From: Vicugna vicugna
Lineage: Eukaryota
NCBI GenBank assembly: GCA_013265495.1
Contig: MU058213.1
Span: 558,001-622,000 of the forward strand
Length of the DNA stretch: 64,000 nt
Reading direction: 5' to 3'
Below are positions 5,548 through 55,715 of the stretch, piece by piece. Position 1 is the stretch's first letter; the number at the start of each line of letters is the position of its first letter. The position numbers and the translations under genes were made by a program. The notes beneath the pieces were generated by a model that saw only the letters and a program-made list of their open reading frames with translations, did no database searches and was not told where the DNA came from.

Positions 5548-5610
5548 TTATGCTTCAGTCATCCTCTTCCTCTTCATGCCCTGCTTTCCTCTTTCTGGAG
5601 GGTTCACCTG
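5548..5610 (-). CDS. LEO1-like exon 12' (terminal exon)
   Basis: Acceptor TGTTCAG|CAG|GTGAACC. LEO1 frame reads GEPSRKRKAGHEEEEDD* (TGA 5555-5557); phase-0 frame reads QVNPPERGKQGMKRKRMTEA* (TAA 5548-5550). The frame actually used is uncertain. Confidence 0.55.
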   Translation of the reverse strand, partial: QVNPPERGKQGMKRKRMTEA

Positions 5611-6619
5611 CTGAACAGATACGAGAAAGAAGAGAGACAATTTTCAATACTGAACGTTTGTGGAAATTTAGTCTAAAGCAGTTGGGAGCCAATGTGGGGA
5701 GCCAGCCCTTCGCATGGGCTGACTGGCGACCTTATCCACAGACACTGTGTCTGCGGGTCCGGCAGTGGGAGCCCGGGCTGCCCGGGCAGCGGTCAGGGCC
5801 CAGGGACACTTCTCACTCCATCCTGACTGGGATTCTGCTCATGTTACTTGGAATACATTCCCCTGTTCCTCAGTACTTCACTTTCTCTATGTAAAATTCA
5901 GTATTTTAAAGCCTGTCAACTTTTTTTCTTAAAGGACTGCTTGTGTTTTATGTGCTTTTCTAGTATGCTTTCAGAGTTTAAAATATATTTTTCACATGAA
6001 AAGTGAGTGCCTCCCTTACGCGGTAAGGGACACTGCTCTCACTGCGATGTTGACTCGGCCCTGTAACTCCAGATCCATCGTGCAGCATGCTCAGTGTTCA
6101 GAAAACATGGCATGAATGAATGTGGCACAGTGGCAACATAGTGATTCACCTGTATAATTAAGACTTAAAAAATTTCTTTGGACTCGGAAGTAATTAAAGG
6201 AAAATAATTTTAATAACATGGAAATAAAATAACCCCCCACTGTTATACTCAAACACTAAGGGCACCCAGTGCCCACCATGGACACGAGGCCCCTCTCTCT
6301 ACTGCACTGAACCATTTCAGGTTCTCTAGCCAAGCCCTGCTGTCTCGGGGCCATAGGTCTTTTCTCACTGGCGGGCCCACCCTAACACTCTTCCTTCAAC
6401 ACTGAGCAAGAGGGCACCTTCTCTGGGCAGCCCCCCACCATGCACAGGTGTCAGACCCTCCCCAGGCCAATCATTCCTGGTCCTGTTACTGGATTTATCT
6501 CCCCGGGGTTCAGGGAGCTGTGCGGACGTCTGTGCTCCTGGGCTGAGAGCCTCTTCACTCCAGGAGCTGACTTGTGGGTACAAGGCAACCCCCTTCGAAC
6601 TGAATAAATTTGGTTTTAC

Positions 6620-6717
6620 CTCATCACTGGTGAGTTTCTTTGCTTTGAGTAATCTCTGAGCCTTATCTTCCTCTGGGCCCTCACCACTGTCTGAAGAACA
6701 GATTCTGGCCTGTTCCT
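6620..6717 (-). CDS. LEO1-like exon 11' (98 nt)
   Basis: CTTTCAG|AGG...GAG|GTAAAA; LEO1 frame [32 protein letters not shown]; also stop-free in the shifted frame. Confidence 0.6.
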
Positions 6718-7269
6718 CTGAAAGCAAAGGAACTTTCCATATGGGATTGACCTTCAGAGATGAAGTTCCATGAATTCTCAAATTTTTCTGATGCTGAATA
6801 TTTTAACTTTCCACTCTATCTTTTTCGCTTGAGGGAAACAGTTTTTTAAGTTTTGATGAAGAGGTAGATAATACCTTTCAAACGCGCTTAAATGACTTAG
6901 AGTTGAAAGGTTTTGTCCTCAGATGTCTGATCACTTCTAGATACCCGGGGGGCTTTATGCACATCTTTTTTTAAAACTACGAAGTTTAAACTTTGGGTCC
7001 ATCATCATACAAGCAGGCGAACTGCCTATGAACACATTTTCCTTCATAAGAGCATAAATTATTTAATTGATTTTCTTTATTCTGGGGGTGCCTTATTTAC
7101 CCAGCTAAGCTTTTGTGTGGGAAAGTGGCTCTACAAAAACAAAGACAAAATAAAAGGCCTTTGTACTGTTGTCCCTGTACTGTTGTCCTAAGTGAGTAAG
7201 AGCAGGACGGGTAGTAAGGGCCCACCAGAGCACAGGCGGCCCCGAGACGGTGCAGTGTGACCGGCTCAC

Positions 7270-7434
7270 CTTGGCACGCCCCTCGGGAATGGTTTCTGAT
7301 GGTATCTCAACCTCCTCCTCCCTCTCATCACTGCTGTGGTCCTGGCAGGCGGGGCTTGGCCCCTGCTGGTTCTGCTTCTCCCGCAAATACATTGTCTCCT
7401 GGTGAGCAGAAGCCCTCAAACGTTCTTCTTCTTT
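7270..7434 (-). CDS. LEO1-like exon 10' (165 nt vs 187 nt in LEO1; net -1 frameshift near 7305)
   Basis: TTTACAG|AAAGAAGAAG...[39 protein letters not shown]... Confidence 0.65.
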
Positions 7435-8364
7435 CTGTAAAGAAGCAAATAAACTACTGAACTTAAAAAAAAAACCAAAAAACAACTAGCTTAGTGCCCA
7501 CTTGAAACTATTTCACTACAAAGGAAATGTAAATGCCTAGCCCAGGATAACACCCATTCCCTGTCCTGGATACAGTTCTCTCCATCCGACACCTCTGTTA
7601 ACCAGACACGGGCATCATCTTGTTTGGTTCTAAGGCGTGAAGACAACACAAAGGTGAAGGACAGAGGCTCCCTCACACCAACCGCCCCATCGGAACAGGC
7701 ACAGGTTCGGCCGTGGGCTCAGCCGTGTCCCCTGTGCTGCCCGTCAGAGCCCAGGCAGCCGCCACCCAGCAGGTGCCTGAGGCAGGCGGTTTCTCTTCGC
7801 CCCTGAGACGGACACCTGACTTGCCCAGGCTCCACCAAACTACCGTGGTGCCCAGATATTCCTGTCTGGGCCCCTCAACCCAGAGAGCTCCCCACAGCTC
7901 CTGACGGCAGGATGCAGGACGGGGAGGTGCTGGGGGGGTTCCCTGAGCCCCAAAGTAGAACTTTCGTTCCTGTCCATCAGCCTGGCGGTCCACACGATGG
8001 GGTTCACAAGGCAGGGCTGGTGTTAACCAAGTCAGGAATGTCCTTTGACGTTCCTACATCACTGACTACCTGGAACACAGTTTTATGATACCTGTCAAAG
8101 GTTACACTTTTTAAACCATCAGTTTGCCCTGAAATCTCACAGATTGGAGACAGAGCTCCTGAATGTCTGGAGTGCTCTACCTCACCAGTGGCCATTGGCT
8201 AGGACCAGTAATACAATTAACCACATGCTTGGAAGGTCAAAGCTAGCTCCCTGATAACTATAAGAATAAAATGGCTGTGGCAATAAGGAATGACAGATCA
8301 ATATTCTGGAAAGCACAGCTCTTACTACCCTCAAAAAACCCAGGATAAAGCTCAGGCAACATAC

Positions 8365-8500
8365 CTTAATCATCTCTATGCGTTGGCATTCAGGATCACG
8401 ACCAGCCATTGGTAAGATTCTAATCTTCTGTATCCCCGAGCATCTATTAGCAAGTGGCAGGGTCATCTTTTTATGCGTGGCATAGTCTGTAGAGTGAGGT
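8365..8500 (-). CDS. LEO1-like exon 9' (136 nt)
   Basis: CCGCAG|ACC...[54 protein letters not shown]. Confidence 0.75.
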
Positions 8501-8844
8501 CTGCGGGAAACAAACAAAAAAGTCTCACTGTATAATAAGAACAGTTGTTGGCAATAGTGCCAACAGCAAACAGCTGTGGACAAAGACATGTCCCTTTAAT
8601 GGAGCAGAGTGGCAAGGCCACAGTACTGGTGCTTTAGGGCCTTCCTCCTTCTCTGGCTTCCTAAGCAGTTCCCCCTTTAGCCCTGCCTCCCAGGGAAAGC
8701 TGATGGGGTGAAGTGGGAGTGGAAGGAAGGAGGAGATGGTGGGGTCCAAGGCTTTTATAAAGAAAACCCGCAAGTACAATCACAGAAGAGACGACATGGG
8801 AGATCGTAGTTCCATGAAGGTGGCACAGAGGCCAGAAGGTAGAA

Positions 8845-8936
8845 TTTTTTTTTTTAATGAAGGTACTGGGGATTGAAACCAGGACCTTGTGCATGCTAAG
8901 CACATAATGCACCGCTGAGCTGTACCCACACACCCT
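8845..8936 (-). mobile_element. tRNA-derived SINE (camelid Vic-1-like)
   Basis: Reverse complement has box A/B-like AGCTCAGCGG...GCATGCACAAGGTCCTGGTTTCAATCCCCAGTACC and an A tail. Confidence 0.8.
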
Positions 8937-9619
8937 GAGGCACAACTTAAGTCCCTCCATCTGGATAAAACTTGAAGAAAAATGAAAGCAAGGAGGCGGG
9001 TCTCAGGAGGGGAGCAACATGACAGCCCAGAGGGACAACAACAGCTGGAATAGGAGGCCCTGGTGCAGAAAGCCGCGGATTCCTCACTAATGGAAGGCAC
9101 ATCTTAGGAATGATCCTTAGGGAAATCACAAGGAGAGTGTGGCTGTAAGGAATGAAACTGCACTGGGCAGTCAATATCACCCCCACGTGGAGGAGCTCGG
9201 GGCACAAGAGAGGAAAGCACACTGTGGAACTGGTTGTATGTAGGATGCCGGCCTAGCAGAGATCATTAAGGGCCGGACTGGAGCAGTATTTCTTGTGCAT
9301 GGCATGATATTTTTACGTATTACTTGACTCAGTGGATAGAGCACCCCTCTGAGGGAGATGTTATCTCCATTTTATAAGATAAGGAAACTAAACACTGCTG
9401 AGATTGAGACTTCCTCAAGCTTACACGAGCATTAGTGAAACACAACCCCAGAGCTGTCTGCTGCAGTCTTTGAAACAGCAACATCTTTCTGGAGTATAAT
9501 TTATATACCATAAAACTCACTCATTTTAATAAATAATTAAAGGATTTTTTAATTTATCAAGCTGTGTGATCTGTACCACAACCTGATTTAAAACATTTCC
9601 ATGACCCCAGAAAGGACCC

Positions 9620-10085
9620 TTGCGCGCACCGTGACAGTCTTCTAAGAGCCCCGCTTCTGAAGGGAGGCCGCACAAGGGCCAGTGCGTCCCGCGGAAGGAA
9701 GGCGTGAGCAGGCACGCGAACCGCGAAGAAAAGATGCGCGCGCGGCACTGGGCGCCGGCCGCTCGAGCTCAGTGCGCAGCCGCAGCACCGGCCGGCCGGC
9801 CCTTTCCTCTGGCGCATGCGCACTGCAGGAGCCGGCGCCCCGGGTAACCGCCCGGGACCAGACCGCGGGCCTGGGGGAGCGGCGGCTCGGAATCACGTCA
9901 TCTCGGCCGACTCGGGCTTTTTGCACACCCAGGCTCTCTGCCTTGTTGCTCTTAAACTGCAAGGAGCAATACGTCAGTACGAATAGTTACCTAAAGGTGA
10001 GTTTGGATTTGAAGACGGCTTGTCCCCGCAGACCCGTGTCTTCGCGAATGAACAGGTGGTTGTAATTGCCCAGCAGCGGGGCTTT
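9620..10085. promoter_or_regulatory. CpG island inside the paralog (intron 8' and exon 8') with NRF1 and CRE-like motifs
   Basis: Dense CpG/GC; GCGCATGCGC at 9812-9821; TCACGTCA at 9893-9900; TACGTCA at 9970-9976. Confidence 0.7.
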
Positions 10086-10125
10086 GTAGACATCAAACAC
10101 CTCACTGCCTAAGTGCAGGGACAGG
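9991..10125 (-). CDS. LEO1-like exon 8' (135 nt)
   Basis: TTTCCAG|CCTG...[55 protein letters not shown]. Confidence 0.75.
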
Positions 10126-10703
10126 CTGGAAACGAGAAATCGTCCAGTTATCAGGGTGGGTATCGAGCGAACCCTGCAGCTTCCATTCTACCCCATTAGC
10201 TGTTCTTAAACTGCTGTGGGACTGCAGGGTCCCATCCTCTACTGAACTCCTAAGGAATGCGAAGAATTTACCGTCAACAGCTAAGCTACCTTCTTTCCAA
10301 ATAAAAGGTGGTAAAAATCCATCCTCCTTTCAGCCAGAAATAGAATTTTTTTTATCATTTTCCCACCCTCTACCTCTTTTATTAGTAAAAGAGAAATCTT
10401 TTTTTTTCAAACATACCAATTTCTAATTTCTAATAGTCACATTTGGGAGCTAACATTGGGTTTTCACTTCAGTAAGGTAGATACCATGAGTCTAATCACA
10501 TCTTGGGTCTATTTGTCTCCCTCCAGCACAGCACTGTGCTCTCGACCCTATTTATTCCTATCAGGTGATGCCAGAGGCCTAGATTTTGTTAATTCTTTCA
10601 TGAAAGATGACCTACGGTCCTACACAGAAAACTTCAGTCTTCCCAGGCCCCCCACCACCACCCAACCCCGGAACTTCCATGCTCTCCAGGACTTTATGCT
10701 CAC

Positions 10704-10798
10704 CTCCCATCTGACCACTTGACTATCCGAGCATTGCTTTCTTTAATTTTATTTCCTTCTTTGTCCCGGCGTATCCTCCATCGTAAAGTATTTTCCAC
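10704..10798 (-). CDS. LEO1-like exon 7' (95 nt)
   Basis: AATCAG|GTGGAA...[42 protein letters not shown]. Confidence 0.75.
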
Positions 10799-10835
10799 CT
10801 GATTCAAAACACAAAGGCATTAGAAAATCAGTGTA

Positions 10836-10970
10836 GGGGGGAGGGTATAGCTCAGTGGTAGAGTGTATATGCCTAGCATGCAGGAGGTCCTGGGTTCAAT
10901 CCCCAGGACATTATAAATAAACCTAATTACCCCCCTCAAAAAAAACCCTAAAAATAAATTATTAAAAAAA
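10836..10970 (+). mobile_element. tRNA-derived SINE (Vic-1-like)
   Basis: GGGGAGGGTATAGCTCAGTGGTAGAG...GGTCCTGGGTTCAATCCCCAG...AAACCTAATTACC, A tail. Confidence 0.85.
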
Positions 10971-12049
10971 GATCAGAGATTTATTAGCTGTGAAAGAAGA
11001 AAAGACAGAAAGAAAGAAACAAAGAGACCAGTGTAACTATGTGTTCTTTTTTCCTCAAGTGATTCATACTCATGTGCCAAGGATTCATAGGCAGTGATAG
11101 AATAATCTCACCAAAAAAGAGCTGATTGGGCTCCTCCTGCCACAGATACCTCGAATATTGGTTAAACTCACCAGATGTTCTGTGTAAATCTTCTCTGAGC
11201 TTCAGTTCATGGCAGTGGAAGTGGAAATTTGGGGACCACATGAGGTAGGTAGGCAGTTAAAGCAGGGCCTTCTGCCTACTGCAGCCCCATTTGAAGGGCT
11301 ATGACCCCAATGAAAGAAGGACTAAAAAAGTGCCCATTCGCCTAGTAAAACAGGGAAGCTCTGGGCATTAAATTTTAGAAATGTTTAAAAGAATATACAA
11401 TTAAGTAATTAACAACAAATTAAAACCTGAGGTGTGTGCTTTACCCTACCCATGTGGCAGGGAACTCCAAATCATAAAAATGGAGCCCGCCACTGCTACC
11501 ACGGGGGCCCCGGCAGAAGCTCACAGAAAACCCCCTTAAAGATGACACATGCCTGTGAGAGCAATGGTAGGGCTTTGCCAGCCAGGCCTTCTGGAGAGGA
11601 ACCACCTAACGGCGACGAGGCCTCTTTCTGTGCATAATCTGAATTTCCATAAAGAGCCTGAGATACCCTTATTGTGGGAAGTTGCTCAGACCTCTCCACT
11701 GTAAAACTGGAGGCAGTTTTATACATCTAGCTACATTATTTATCCCGAAGGAAGTAGCTGACAATTTTCAAGAATTTTTATCTGTTCTTCTGTCAAAAAT
11801 TACAACTGCAAAAGAAAGGTTAGAAAAGCGACAATTCTACAGGGATTTTTAAAAAAGGATATGTACCTTCTCCCCTAGAAATATTCTGAAAAGACACTTA
11901 ATTCCTTGTTCTAAACAGTTATTTGTTGATTCAAGAGTAAACATAAAAGACCATTTCATAAGCTCAAGTCTCAAATTGTTATCCTTGTGTTTTACTTTAT
12001 AAAAAGAAAAACGTTACAACAACAACAACCAGGAATCAAGTATTGGTAC

Positions 12050-12134
12050 CTTTAATTTTATCCTGGTTCTATCTTCCTCGTCAAGCATTTTCTCATCTTC
12101 AAATTCATCTTCATAATACTGAGGATCAAAAGGC
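12050..12134 (-). CDS. LEO1-like exon 6' (85 nt)
   Basis: TTTTAG|GCCT...[37 protein letters not shown]. Confidence 0.75.
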
Positions 12135-12819
12135 CTAAAAATTGTTTTTAATGTAGTATTAGCCATTTGTAGTATTGAATATAATACTATCAAATAATAA
12201 TCTTTACATCTTTAGCATACATTAAAAAAATCACAGTAGACAAACTTCATGTAAAACTTCAAAGTATGCAAATTATTATCACTTCTTGAAATTTGATTTC
12301 AAAACATATTACCAAATGTGACGACTGATTCAAAGTTTTTAAATTTTTTTTTGTTCGGTGAAATGTATCTTCTATTTTTTCATATTTTTAAAGAAAAGTG
12401 TCATGTTTAATTGCATAAGAGCTTATACTCATGCATCTTCATGAATAATACCAACCAATACTATTTTATTGTCCAAAATCATTGTCTTTTCTAGATTCAC
12501 AATGGCTTTTGCATTTAACACTAGTGATTTCTCTAGCAAACTTTCTACGCTTATTTTACAATTTTTCCAGCTTTATCAGCTATGTCTGTTCGTTTATAAG
12601 GAAGTGCCAAAATGCTAGCAGAATTATCAGCATTAAAACTTTTCCCACAGTAATTCATCATTTTTCTACTATAGCACATCCTAAATTTATTTTTTTTAAA
12701 GCCACATGAGAAACCTCCCATCTTGCCGATTAGCCAACTCATTATAAGAAAACATTTACGTTCCACATATTTTTTACTCAATATCTTGGGGGGGGGGAAA
12801 CTTTTATCAGTCCTCTTAC

Positions 12820-12965
12820 TTGGGTTCTATGCTGAGAAATCTGGGTAGTTTAACAAAGTACAATACATTTCCTAAATCAGAGTAGATACTGGGAATTTCT
12901 ACTTCTATTTTGGTTTCAGAAATCGGCTCTTCCTCCTGCTGGTCCTGCGGCACTCCACGTCCATC
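12820..12965 (-). CDS. LEO1-like exon 5' (146 nt)
   Basis: CTTAG|GATGGA...[59 protein letters not shown]. Confidence 0.75.
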
Positions 12966-13600
12966 CTAAGAGAGGAATCAGAGGAATCAGAACGTGAGAG
13001 CTTGAGCTGACGTGAGAAATGCTCTGGCTCCCCTTCTGCACTGTGCAGATGCAGGTTTGACAGAAGTCAGTTTAGACACCACTTCAGAAACAGAGCAGTC
13101 AGCAACCAACCCCTCCAGGCCTCTCCTTAAAATTTCATCCTTTCCTCCCCTCCTCCCCCCAAACCACCATGCAAAACAAGATCTGGTAGCCTGCATTACC
13201 AGAAAAAAGTCTCGACACATCTAGCTTGCATAAGATGTTTAACAACAGAAGTGTGAAATTATGCAACCCCTCAATACAAGGTAACTATTTACATCACAGA
13301 AGAATGTCCAGAAACACACACTCCTTGGCACAGGTTTGAGTAAGAAAAACTTAAAGGTTTTCAAATGAGTTCTCACAGTCTAGTCCCTAAAGTTTGGTAT
13401 GAGACTCATTCTGAGCAGTTCCTTCCATTCCCTTTAATATCCAGAAATTCCCAACATAGTTAAGTCACCTGTTCATCAGATATTTCAGACTGCTACTCAT
13501 TATCCATGTCCTCTCTGTTCAAGAGTTGGATCCATCAGCCTCTGAAACCTTTTCTTAGCTTTGAACAATGGGACCAGTTGAGATTAGTGACTGTACTTAC

Positions 13601-13695
13601 AACAGGCTGTCCTGGAATAGGTGGTTGATTGTCCCCATCACTCTCAGAAGAAATGTCATCTATGTCTCCGAACAGGTCCATGGTCCCACTATAAT
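13601..13695 (-). CDS. LEO1-like exon 4' (95 nt), containing the candidate start ATG at 13681-13679
   Basis: TTGAAG|ATTATAGTGGGACCATGG...GTT|GTAAGT; (D)[31 protein letters not shown]; Kozak ACCATGG. Confidence 0.7.
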
Positions 13696-16227: not shown

Positions 16228-16360
16228 GGGGGTGGGGGGAGGGTACAACTCAGGGGTAGGGTGGGTATTTAGCATGCATGAGGACCTGGGTTCAATCCCC
16301 AGGACCTCCATTATATAAACAAACCTAATCACCTGCCCCCCCCACGAAAAATTCAAAACA
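16228..16360 (+). mobile_element. tRNA-derived SINE (Vic-1-like)
   Basis: TTAGCATGCATGAGGACCTGGGTTCAATCCCCAGGACCTCC...AAACCTAATCACC. Confidence 0.8.
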
Positions 16361-16764
16361 ACAATTTATACACAGGGTCCTTGGAGCTGGAACTCATACC
16401 TGAGGAGAAGTGTCCAGTTAGTTCTGATGTCTCTCAGGCTCTTCAAGTCTTGGTAAAGCTGCACACTGGACTGAGCTGCTGCAGGAAGAAACTGCCTCTG
16501 CTGGGGTGAAGTGTTGGTGGGCCCCCTGAGAAAAACTGCAAGTAAACAGGAAGCCCCTAGAAAGTTCCACAAACAAACAGGAAGGAGCAATCTCTGCTGT
16601 TATCCAGGTTTCCAGTCTTCCTTCTCTAGCGCCCCTAACAGGCAGCACCTGGCAAAGCTGAAATAAGGTTGCAGAGTCTTGCCCTTTATCTCTCAGCCTG
16701 GCAGCCTGGTATGGAGGGCTGGTTTGGAGATGAGAGACAAGAGCTTAGTCACTGACACAAGTGA

Positions 16765-16902: not shown

Positions 16903-17032
16903 GGGAGAGGGTATAGCTCAAGTGGTAGAGCACACGTTTGGGATGCACAAGGTCCTGGGTTCAATCCCCAGTACCTCCTCCAAATAGAAATAAATAAACC
17001 TAATTACCTCCCCCTCATAAAACAAACAAATG
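16903..17032 (+). mobile_element. tRNA-derived SINE (Vic-1-like) with target-site duplication
   Basis: SINE body flanked by AAAGCCAG(A/G)CATAGG at ~16890-16904 and 17033-17047. Confidence 0.88.
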
Positions 17033-18163: not shown

Positions 18164-50934
<32,771 letters not shown>

Positions 50935-55567: not shown

Positions 55568-55715
55568 TGGAGGGGGAAATATGAGCTTGGATCAAGTGGT
55601 AGAGCACATGCTTAGCATTCACGAGGTCCTGGGTTCAACACCCCAGTACCTCCTCTGAAAATAAACAAACCAAATTACCTCCCTTCCGTCCCCCCCCCCG
55701 CAAAAGAAAACAAAG
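55568..55715 (+). mobile_element. tRNA-derived SINE (Vic-1-like)
   Basis: CAAGTGGTAGAGCACATGCTTAGCATTCACGAGGTCCTGGGTTCAACACCCCAGTACCTCC. Confidence 0.8.

What the first reader, a model, noticed from the sequence alone, without database searches (positions are those of the whole stretch)
7408..8009. ~600-bp near-identical tract shared with LEO1 intron 9 (26759-27358): gene-conversion signature
Seen: this tract is almost all intronic and differs from the LEO1 copy at only about 30 positions (~95% identity, hand count). Identity drops abruptly on both sides. It falls inside exon 10 after the codons for KEEERLRAS, where the coding sequence itself is far more diverged. An intron more similar than its adjacent exon does not fit simple divergence. 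Inference: recent non-allelic gene conversion between the paralog and an essential gene, across a splice acceptor.
Basis: partly seen in the sequence, partly recalled or inferred. Interest (0 to 1): 0.7.

Follow-up and report, generated by a model that had tools for sequence, protein, structure and literature searches.

The report
Repeatedly copied intron patch beside LEO1
An essential transcription gene (LEO1) and its old, much-diverged neighbouring copy share a 600-base intron patch kept nearly identical by DNA copying, a known process that here seems to have struck the same spot in camel relatives, bats and pangolins.

Summary
The tract is real: 95.2% over 604 columns, against 62-77% for other intron-containing LEO1/paralog matches. 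The paralog is an old boreoeutherian LEO1-like gene, so divergence alone cannot explain this. Non-allelic gene conversion is supported, but probably as repeated events. Mismatches are layered (19/313 near the exon, 4/285 distally, p=0.04), and the distal part is GC-richer than all 81 comparison windows. No outgroup DNA was obtained, but gene models that translate this intron gave a test. In Myotis davidii one 45-residue piece precedes both paralog exon 10 and LEO1 exon 10, identical in both; it matches the tract but differs from both camelid copies. Copies therefore group by lineage, with a caveat about that assembly. Pangolin paralogs switch to LEO1-type at intron 9 (5 of 140 proteins). Correction: the drop after KEEERLRAS is an old protein-conservation border, not camelid-specific evidence. 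Direction is unresolved. It works like BMP8A/B, DDX19A/B and TUBG1/2 but fails their two-exon filter. The scan noted a similar case on other DNA (PCDH8), not this tract.

The parts
7408..8009 (-). Homogenised tract, paralog copy: 3' 575 nt of intron 9, splice acceptor and first 27 nt of exon 10
26759..27358 (-). Homogenised tract, LEO1 copy, 19.35 kb away in the same orientation
7725..8009 (-). Younger distal stratum: 4 mismatches in 285 sites, GC 64% (paralog) and 62% (LEO1)
7435..7724 (-). Older exon-proximal stratum: 19 mismatches in 286 intronic sites, GC 34-57%
7408..7434 (-). Nine codons KEEERLRAS (human LEO1 538-546), identical in both genes and conserved in most mammalian paralogs
7270..7407 (-). 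Diverged remainder of paralog exon 10; exon is 165 nt vs 187 nt in LEO1, so the frame is shifted; same end sequence in Camelus proteins
7682..7855 (-). Part of the tract matched by translated intron pieces in Myotis davidii and M. brandtii gene models
8010..8364 (-). Paralog-specific rest of intron 9 (355 nt); matched by sheep, mouse-lemur and unnamed mammalian pieces; collinear with the tract in P0321/P0324
27359..28680 (-). LEO1-specific rest of intron 9 (1322 nt); no clear homology to the paralog except near the donor; likely barrier at the tract edge
5548..13695 (-). LEO1-like paralog, exons 4-12 in LEO1 numbering (e4 13695-13601, e5 12965-12820, e6 12134-12050, e7 10798-10704, e8 10125-9991, e9 8500-8365, e10 7434-7270, e11 6717-6620, e12 from 5610); dN/dS about 0.19 against LEO1
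18165..36004 (-). LEO1 exons 4-12 (e9 28816-28681, e10 26785-26599, e11 24130-24033); exons 2-3 lie further up at about 39200-42060

Best explanation
The tract is a gene-conversion island in an old tandem pair. LEO1 and a partial duplicate (exons 4-12), present across Boreoeutheria, have diverged except for the 3' part of intron 9 plus nine codons. There, germline break repair uses the other copy 19 kb away as template (inferred). Each event restores identity and keeps the patch eligible for the next, and GC-biased repair raises its GC (inferred). The intronic edge is held by a non-homologous block (0.36 vs 1.3 kb, shown). The exonic edge is held by selection: up to KEEERLRAS copying in either direction leaves both proteins unchanged, and beyond it would alter an almost invariant LEO1 or the diverged paralog tail (inferred). 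At least two rounds occurred on the camelid line, and separate rounds in Myotis bats; a larger exchange with a switch in intron 9 occurred in pangolins.
For: Identity step of 95-96% vs 62-77% for other intron-containing matches. Old duplication: LEO1-like proteins in primates, treeshrew, colugo, rodents, lagomorphs, carnivores, bats, perissodactyls and cetartiodactyls, and the 4 LEO1 rows form their own clade apart from 24 paralog rows. Two strata, 19/313 vs 4/285, permutation p=0.04. Distal 450 nt at GC 60-61%, reached by 0 of 61 LEO1 and 0 of 20 paralog-side windows; the youngest stratum is the GC-richest. M. davidii model P0053 holds the same 45-residue intron piece before paralog-type exon 10 and before LEO1 exon 10 (45/45). 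The M. brandtii paralog piece matches 32 of the first 33 residues, then shifts frame, while the best block shared with camelids is 14-15 of 17 and 21 of 28. All three bat pieces are 6 codons longer than both camelid copies between two anchors, and P0321/P0322 are 8 codons longer. Unnamed mammalian ORFs match the camelid frame at 54-62% overall and 19-29 of 35 in the best block, vs 34 of 35 between camelid copies. Pangolins: paralog-type exons 4-9, LEO1-type exon 10 (48-52 of 54 residues vs at most 29 in the other 135 proteins) in two species.
Against: No outgroup DNA and no reads were seen. The bat evidence is from two automatic gene models. P0053 has an abnormal order (LEO1 exon 9, piece, paralog exon 10, piece, LEO1 exon 10), and the same paralog exon 10 also occurs in the normal paralog model P0184, which suggests a mis-join or collapse; the two pieces may be one sequence placed twice. 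P0320 has the camelid spacing, so the length difference is not camelid-specific. The strata test is modest (p=0.04, best split searched). A single copy from a donor that was already GC-rich would also give high GC, and the outgroup ORFs suggest the patch is GC-rich elsewhere. A run test on silent exon sites was not significant (p=0.17-0.22; chi-square p=0.09). Only pangolins show protein-level exchange among 140 paralog-type proteins.
Confidence: 0.68

Rival explanations
1. One (or one cluster of) conversion event on the camelid line only; the bat model is an assembly artefact that says nothing about LEO1's own intron, and the pangolin chimera is unrelated.
For: Overall K2P 0.040 fits one event; the stratification is only p=0.04; P0053 has an abnormal exon order; about 600 nt is within the range of detected human tracts (mean 880 bp detected, 250 bp estimated; bioRxiv 10.1101/135152).
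Against: A mis-join that places a paralog-identical piece next to LEO1 exon 10 itself needs near-identical sequence in both bat introns (inference). The piece next to LEO1 exon 10 in M. davidii matches the paralog piece of an independent M. brandtii assembly at 32 of 33 residues. GC is higher than anywhere else in either gene.
Confidence: 0.17
2. Homogenisation by two unequal crossovers (duplication to a three-gene array with a paralog/LEO1 chimera, then contraction) rather than by non-crossover conversion.
For: Pangolin proteins are the expected chimera (paralog 5', LEO1 3' through exon 12), and M. pentadactyla has two such models on one contig. The end product is indistinguishable from conversion in one genome.
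Against: Needs two rare events per lineage with breakpoints 600 nt apart. No extra copy lies in this window. Flanks on both sides remain fully diverged.
Confidence: 0.08
3. A constrained intronic element (regulatory or RNA) conserved in both copies since the duplication.
For: One block of about 100 nt is fairly well kept in other mammals (24-29 of 35 translated residues in three of four unnamed ORFs), so mild constraint on a core is possible.
Against: Other mammals differ from camelids far more than the camelid copies differ from each other, with indels; 54-62% translated identity corresponds to roughly 20-25% nucleotide difference in simulation. No Rfam match at E up to 1 and RNA fold z = -0.2. 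The tract is more alike than any exon (80-94%).
Confidence: 0.04
4. Mis-assembly or chimeric consensus in this genome.
For: No reads could be laid on the region.
Against: The copies differ at 29 columns spread along the tract, whereas a collapse would give identical copies. Outgroup pieces side with LEO1 at 5 sites and with the paralog at 2, so each copy has its own history. P0321/P0324 run from the paralog flank into the tract in another mammal. The exon-10 protein agrees with several camelid annotations.
Confidence: 0.02

Closest known systems
Long-lasting concerted evolution in mammalian gene pairs BMP8A/B, DDX19A/B, TUBG1/2 (Carson and Scherer 2009, PMC2720389; passages and Discussion read)
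   Same: Old two-gene pair under 1 Mb apart; mosaic of homogenised and diverged parts; raised GC in the homogenised intron; boundaries apparently kept between lineages.
   Different: Here the island is about 600 nt, almost all intron with nine codons, and at 96% it fails their filter (over 97% across two exons and the intron between). The partner is a partial duplicate. Cross-species support is from translated pieces in one bat genus, not full DNA trees. LEO1 has 0 occurrences in that paper's main text.
Primate red/green opsin conversion (as reviewed in PMC3924837; passages read)
   Same: Introns kept alike by conversion next to an exon kept different by selection; genes about 20-24 kb apart; large indels stop conversion.
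   Different: The opsin duplication is far younger and mostly homogenised with a peak of divergence; here most of the pair has escaped and one island remains.
Non-allelic gene conversion in human duplicates (bioRxiv 10.1101/135152; passages read)
   Same: Tract size of hundreds of bases; GC bias (converted regions 48.9% vs 39.6% GC).
   Different: That work finds conversion fading as copies diverge; this patch seems to have stayed eligible while its flanks fell to 62-77%. LEO1 has 0 occurrences in its main text.
Drosophila testis PAF1-complex paralogs, including Leo1L/leo1t (PMC11535153, PMC12324932; passages read)
   Same: A diverged second LEO1 gene; the mammalian paralog may also be germline-expressed (not shown here).
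   Different: Described as drosophilid paralogs of the whole complex; no mammalian LEO1 paralog or conversion is mentioned in the passages seen.

Membership tests
Non-allelic gene conversion tract | Local identity between paralogs far above the pair's background, with sharp edges | tested here: met
   95.2% vs 62-77%; binomial 3e-31
Non-allelic gene conversion tract | Duplication older than the tract's divergence | tested here: met
   Paralog across Boreoeutheria; exon dS about 0.5 vs tract K 0.04
Non-allelic gene conversion tract | Copies group by species, not by locus | tested here: inconclusive
   Favourable: bat pieces 45/45 and 32/33 to each other, lower to camelids. But protein-level only, and one model sits in a suspect assembly
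Non-allelic gene conversion tract | Non-reciprocal transfer without change of copy number | not testable with these tools
   Needs population or pedigree data; direction unresolved
Non-allelic gene conversion tract | Both copies real in reads | not tested
   No sequencing run was listed; sequence arguments only
Carson-Scherer long-lasting concerted pairs (BMP8A/B, DDX19A/B, TUBG1/2) | Pair under 1 Mb apart, duplicated before the human-mouse split | tested here: met
   19.35 kb; paralog in primates, rodents and laurasiatherians
Carson-Scherer long-lasting concerted pairs (BMP8A/B, DDX19A/B, TUBG1/2) | Over 97% identity across two consecutive exons and the intron between | tested here: not met
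   96% over part of one intron plus 27 nt of exon; exon 9 is 88%. Not filed as a member; it works like one
Carson-Scherer long-lasting concerted pairs (BMP8A/B, DDX19A/B, TUBG1/2) | Raised GC in the homogenised intron | tested here: met
   60-61% vs 0 of 81 comparison windows reaching it
Carson-Scherer long-lasting concerted pairs (BMP8A/B, DDX19A/B, TUBG1/2) | Homogenised in every mammal examined, with two copies throughout | tested here: inconclusive
   Both copies seen only in this camelid and one bat; Manis pentadactyla has two LEO1-like models on one contig
Conserved non-coding or RNA element | Equal high conservation across species, or a known or stable RNA structure | tested here: not met
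   54-62% translated identity with indels; no Rfam match; fold z -0.2

The most novel reading that the evidence does not exclude
LEO1 intron 9 is a recombination island that has kept an essential gene and a germline-expressed duplicate in contact through the whole boreoeutherian radiation. An almost purely intronic patch, homogenised separately in many orders, repeatedly rewrites the splice acceptor of LEO1 exon 10 and occasionally seeds a crossover that makes a new chimeric gene (pangolins). The paralog's activity in Prdm9-stage spermatocytes, or a shared element in the GC-rich core, would be what keeps the patch active.
Probability: 0.3. Interest if true: 0.68.

Novelty: new member of a known kind. 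Interest (0 to 1): 0.46.

Why it matters
The process is textbook, but cases that persist across mammalian orders are few, and the one screen I read required two exons plus an intron, so intron-only islands like this would be missed. If confirmed in good assemblies, it gives a clean site for asking why conversion survives in one patch after the rest of a pair has escaped: local break rate and feedback, or selection on a shared element. It can be tested with existing genomes. It also flags a spot where short reads mis-map or assemblies mis-join inside an essential gene, and draws attention to a conserved, little-described short LEO1 paralog.

Tried and rejected
No whole genome is held for the window. 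A degenerate pattern scan of metagenome contigs gave 4 matches, none with LEO1 context or similarity to the window. The sequencing-run search restricted to PacBio libraries listed none; that is not evidence, and it left read-level and Camelus DNA checks open. Other conversion patches in exons 7, 9 and 11 (low silent divergence): run and chi-square tests not significant; the significant grouping (p=0.004) was post hoc; the intron-9 donor similarity also shows in a seal paralog read-through, so it may be ancestral. Paired-column identities of 71-80% for other introns are inflated, since a shuffled control gave 71%; BLAST values are used instead. My first idea that the CpG differences show paralog-to-LEO1 direction was dropped: two of the four distal differences (7787, 7845) look like changes in the paralog. 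An RNA gene or stable fold: none. A young mobile element or internal repeats: no third copy in the window and only short chance repeats; no repeat library was available. A weak hare match to the tract (E 0.098) was not counted. Papers on this pair or tract: none found in searches; no supplements were read, and gene lists in supplements of conversion screens could hold LEO1. The identity of mouse Gm7972 with the paralog (LOC666190) is recalled; searches did not confirm it.

Full report
Observation. Self-BLAST finds 7408-8009 matching 26759-27358 on the same strand at 95.2% over 604 columns, with 23 mismatches and 2 gaps. That is 29 differing columns, 15 transitions, 8 transversions and K2P 0.040. 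Both genes are on the minus strand. The tract covers the last 575 nt of intron 9, the acceptor and 27 identical exon bases encoding KEEERLRAS, which is human LEO1 538-546 by alignment to PDB 6ted_U. Other long intron-containing matches between the genes are 62-77%, and equal-length exons are 80-94%. The rest of exon 10 is about 61% over paired columns. The rest of intron 9 (355 vs 1322 nt) shows no local match beyond the donor end and at most a faint global signal.

The genes. The upstream gene is LEO1. The downstream one is a partial duplicate of exons 4-12 with the Leo1 domain (Pfam PF04004) and dN/dS about 0.19 against LEO1. Its exons 5, 7, 8 and 9 translate exactly as in Vicugna pacos LEO1-like proteins; exons 5, 7 and 8 differ from Camelus, and exon 10 differs from alpaca by one residue. 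The window is therefore a South American camelid. LEO1-like proteins were returned from primates, colugo, treeshrew, rodents, lagomorphs, carnivores, pangolins, bats, horses and rhinoceros, pigs, ruminants, hippo and whales (best 120 shown of 208, 449 and 563). No afrotherian or marsupial paralog was among those shown, which is weak evidence. In a 28-row tree the four LEO1 rows (tenrec to falcon) form a clade at 100/100, apart from 24 paralog rows. The duplication is thus far older than a 4% intron difference.

Internal structure. Mismatches are uneven: 19 of 313 sites on the exon side and 4 of 285 distally (best split, 2000 permutations, p=0.04). GC rises from 34% near the acceptor to 56% and then 62-64% in the youngest part. 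The distal 450 nt (60-61% GC) exceed all 61 LEO1 and 20 paralog-side 450-nt windows. Raised GC in converted introns is reported in PMC2720389 and bioRxiv 10.1101/135152 (passages). For dating, distances of 0.063 and 0.014 give about 6 and 1.4 My at 5e-9 per year (2.5e-8 per five-year generation, PMC8605555 passage), or 21 and 5 My at my assumed slow bound of 1.5e-9. The split of the two camel tribes is put at 11-25 My (PMC1939714 abstract), so the distal layer is probably younger than that split (inference).

Cross-species test. No outgroup DNA or reads could be had. Instead, tblastn of all 319 stored proteins against the tract found two bat gene models that translate part of this intron. Myotis brandtii P0191 has a 45-residue piece between paralog exons 9 and 10, matching window 7682-7765 at 21 of 28 residues (E 3e-10). 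Myotis davidii P0053 reads LEO1 exons 1-9, a 45-residue piece, paralog exon 10, the same piece with 23 more residues in front, then LEO1 exons 10-12. The two pieces are identical (45/45) and match the M. brandtii piece at 32 of the first 33 residues before a frame shift. All three bat pieces are 6 codons longer than both camelid copies between two anchors. So the copies are alike within bats and within camelids and less alike between them. The caveat is real: the order in P0053 is abnormal, and its paralog exon 10 is also in the ordinary paralog model P0184, so a mis-join or collapse is likely. My inference is that such an error needs near-identical sequence in both bat introns, and that the M. 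brandtii comparison needs only that the second piece really lies before LEO1 exon 10.

Further outgroups. A phmmer search with an open frame of the tract returned 4 unnamed ORFs at 54-62%, and three more came as cluster members. In the best 35-residue block they match the camelid copies at 19-29 positions, against 34 between the camelid copies. Simulation equates 55-63% translated identity with 20-25% nucleotide difference; these ORFs were selected for similarity. P0321/P0324 begin in the paralog-specific flank (8187-7999, E 1e-7, no comparable LEO1 hit) and run on into the tract, so the tract is native to the paralog and its edge there is old. P0321 and P0322 are 8 codons longer than both camelid copies; P0320 has the camelid spacing. 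Of the 10 camelid differences above position 7660, outgroups side with LEO1 at 5, with the paralog at 2, and 3 are undecided. Both copies have changed since the last copying, and direction is unresolved.

Exon edge and pangolins. KEEERLRAS is matched at 7-9 of 9 residues in 14 of 14 non-pangolin paralogs tabulated, while the rest of exon 10 is matched at 8-26 of 54; the motif is degraded in mouse-like rodents and horseshoe bats. The sharp drop inside exon 10 is thus an old border in the protein, which fits selection stopping tracts there but is not by itself a camelid breakpoint. Of 140 paralog-type proteins among 288 stored, only the five pangolin ones (two species) have LEO1-type exon 10 (48-52 of 54 vs at most 29; about ten models lack the exon), although their exons 4-9 keep 15-16 of 22 paralog-diagnostic residues. 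Four of the five are LEO1-type through exon 12. The switch lies between exons 9 and 10. An unequal crossover in intron 9 explains this most simply (inference from proteins only).

Mechanism. Shown: identity step, edges, strata, GC, age of the pair, and grouping in bat translations. Inferred: break repair from the other copy, feedback of identity on eligibility, an indel barrier on one side (PMC3924837 passage on large indels ending conversion), selection on the other side, and GC-biased repair. One lead for a germline setting: mouse Gm7972 is listed among genes co-expressed with Prdm9 in testis single-cell data (bioRxiv 10.1101/2021.06.08.447603, one methods passage). That Gm7972 is this paralog is my recollection and was not confirmed. 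The modelled LEO1 extension near upstream DNA is residues 503-529 (PMC7111264 passage), in exon 9 and outside the tract.

Against and unresolved. Silent-site tests for further patches in exons 7, 9 and 11 were not significant. No RNA family or unusual fold lies in the tract. A mild constraint on the GC-rich core is not excluded. One event from a GC-rich donor cannot be ruled out without DNA trees.

Verdict. A real conversion tract (about 0.9 for homogenisation by non-allelic recombination of any kind), probably recurrent across lineages (0.68). It works like BMP8A/B, DDX19A/B and TUBG1/2 but fails that study's two-exon filter, so it is not filed under that set. No paper on this pair or tract appeared in six searches; supplements were not read. 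New member of a known kind; interest 0.46.

Noticed in passing
window 5548-7434 (minus): Paralog exon 10 is 22 nt shorter than LEO1's, shifting the frame. Most annotated camelid proteins shown skip exon 11 and reach the conserved exon-12 ending, yet exon 11 is still 90% identical to LEO1.
   Followed up: partly
window 9600-10000: CpG island (GC 62-69%, CpG observed/expected about 1) inside paralog intron 8, with one GCGCATGCGC palindrome at 9812-9821 (NRF1-like, label recalled; 12 of 100 shuffles had a match). Possible internal or antisense promoter.
   Followed up: partly
P0198, P0268-P0271 (pangolins): Chimeric genes with paralog-type exons 4-9 and LEO1-type exon 10 onward; two such models on one Manis pentadactyla contig.
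   Followed up: partly
P0053 (Myotis davidii): Gene model with a paralog exon 10 inside LEO1 intron 9, flanked by two identical tract pieces: a mis-join or a real insertion.
   Followed up: partly
P0055, P0064, P0062, P0153: Models that join LEO1 to the paralog (LEO1 exon 11 into paralog exon 4; LEO1 exons 1-7 to paralog exons 8-12), suggesting read-through splicing or annotation merges.
   Followed up: no
window 10696-10750, 8347-8431, 6587-6733: Low silent divergence in the 3' half of exon 7, the 3' half of exon 9 with its donor, and exon 11 with its donor flank; possible older conversion patches, not significant in a run test.
   Followed up: partly
window 5548-13695: Paralog third codon positions are GC-richer than LEO1's (44% vs 36% over 259 codons).
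   Followed up: no
window 8845-8930, 10836-10960, 16234-16370, 16903-17025, 48920-49030, 55592-55684: Copies of a tRNA-derived short repeat; one reaches the Rfam tRNA threshold at 16907-16979.
   Followed up: no
P0065, P0066 (Acomys russatus): A separate, diverged near-full-length LEO1 duplicate in spiny mouse, besides the ordinary paralog P0234.
   Followed up: no
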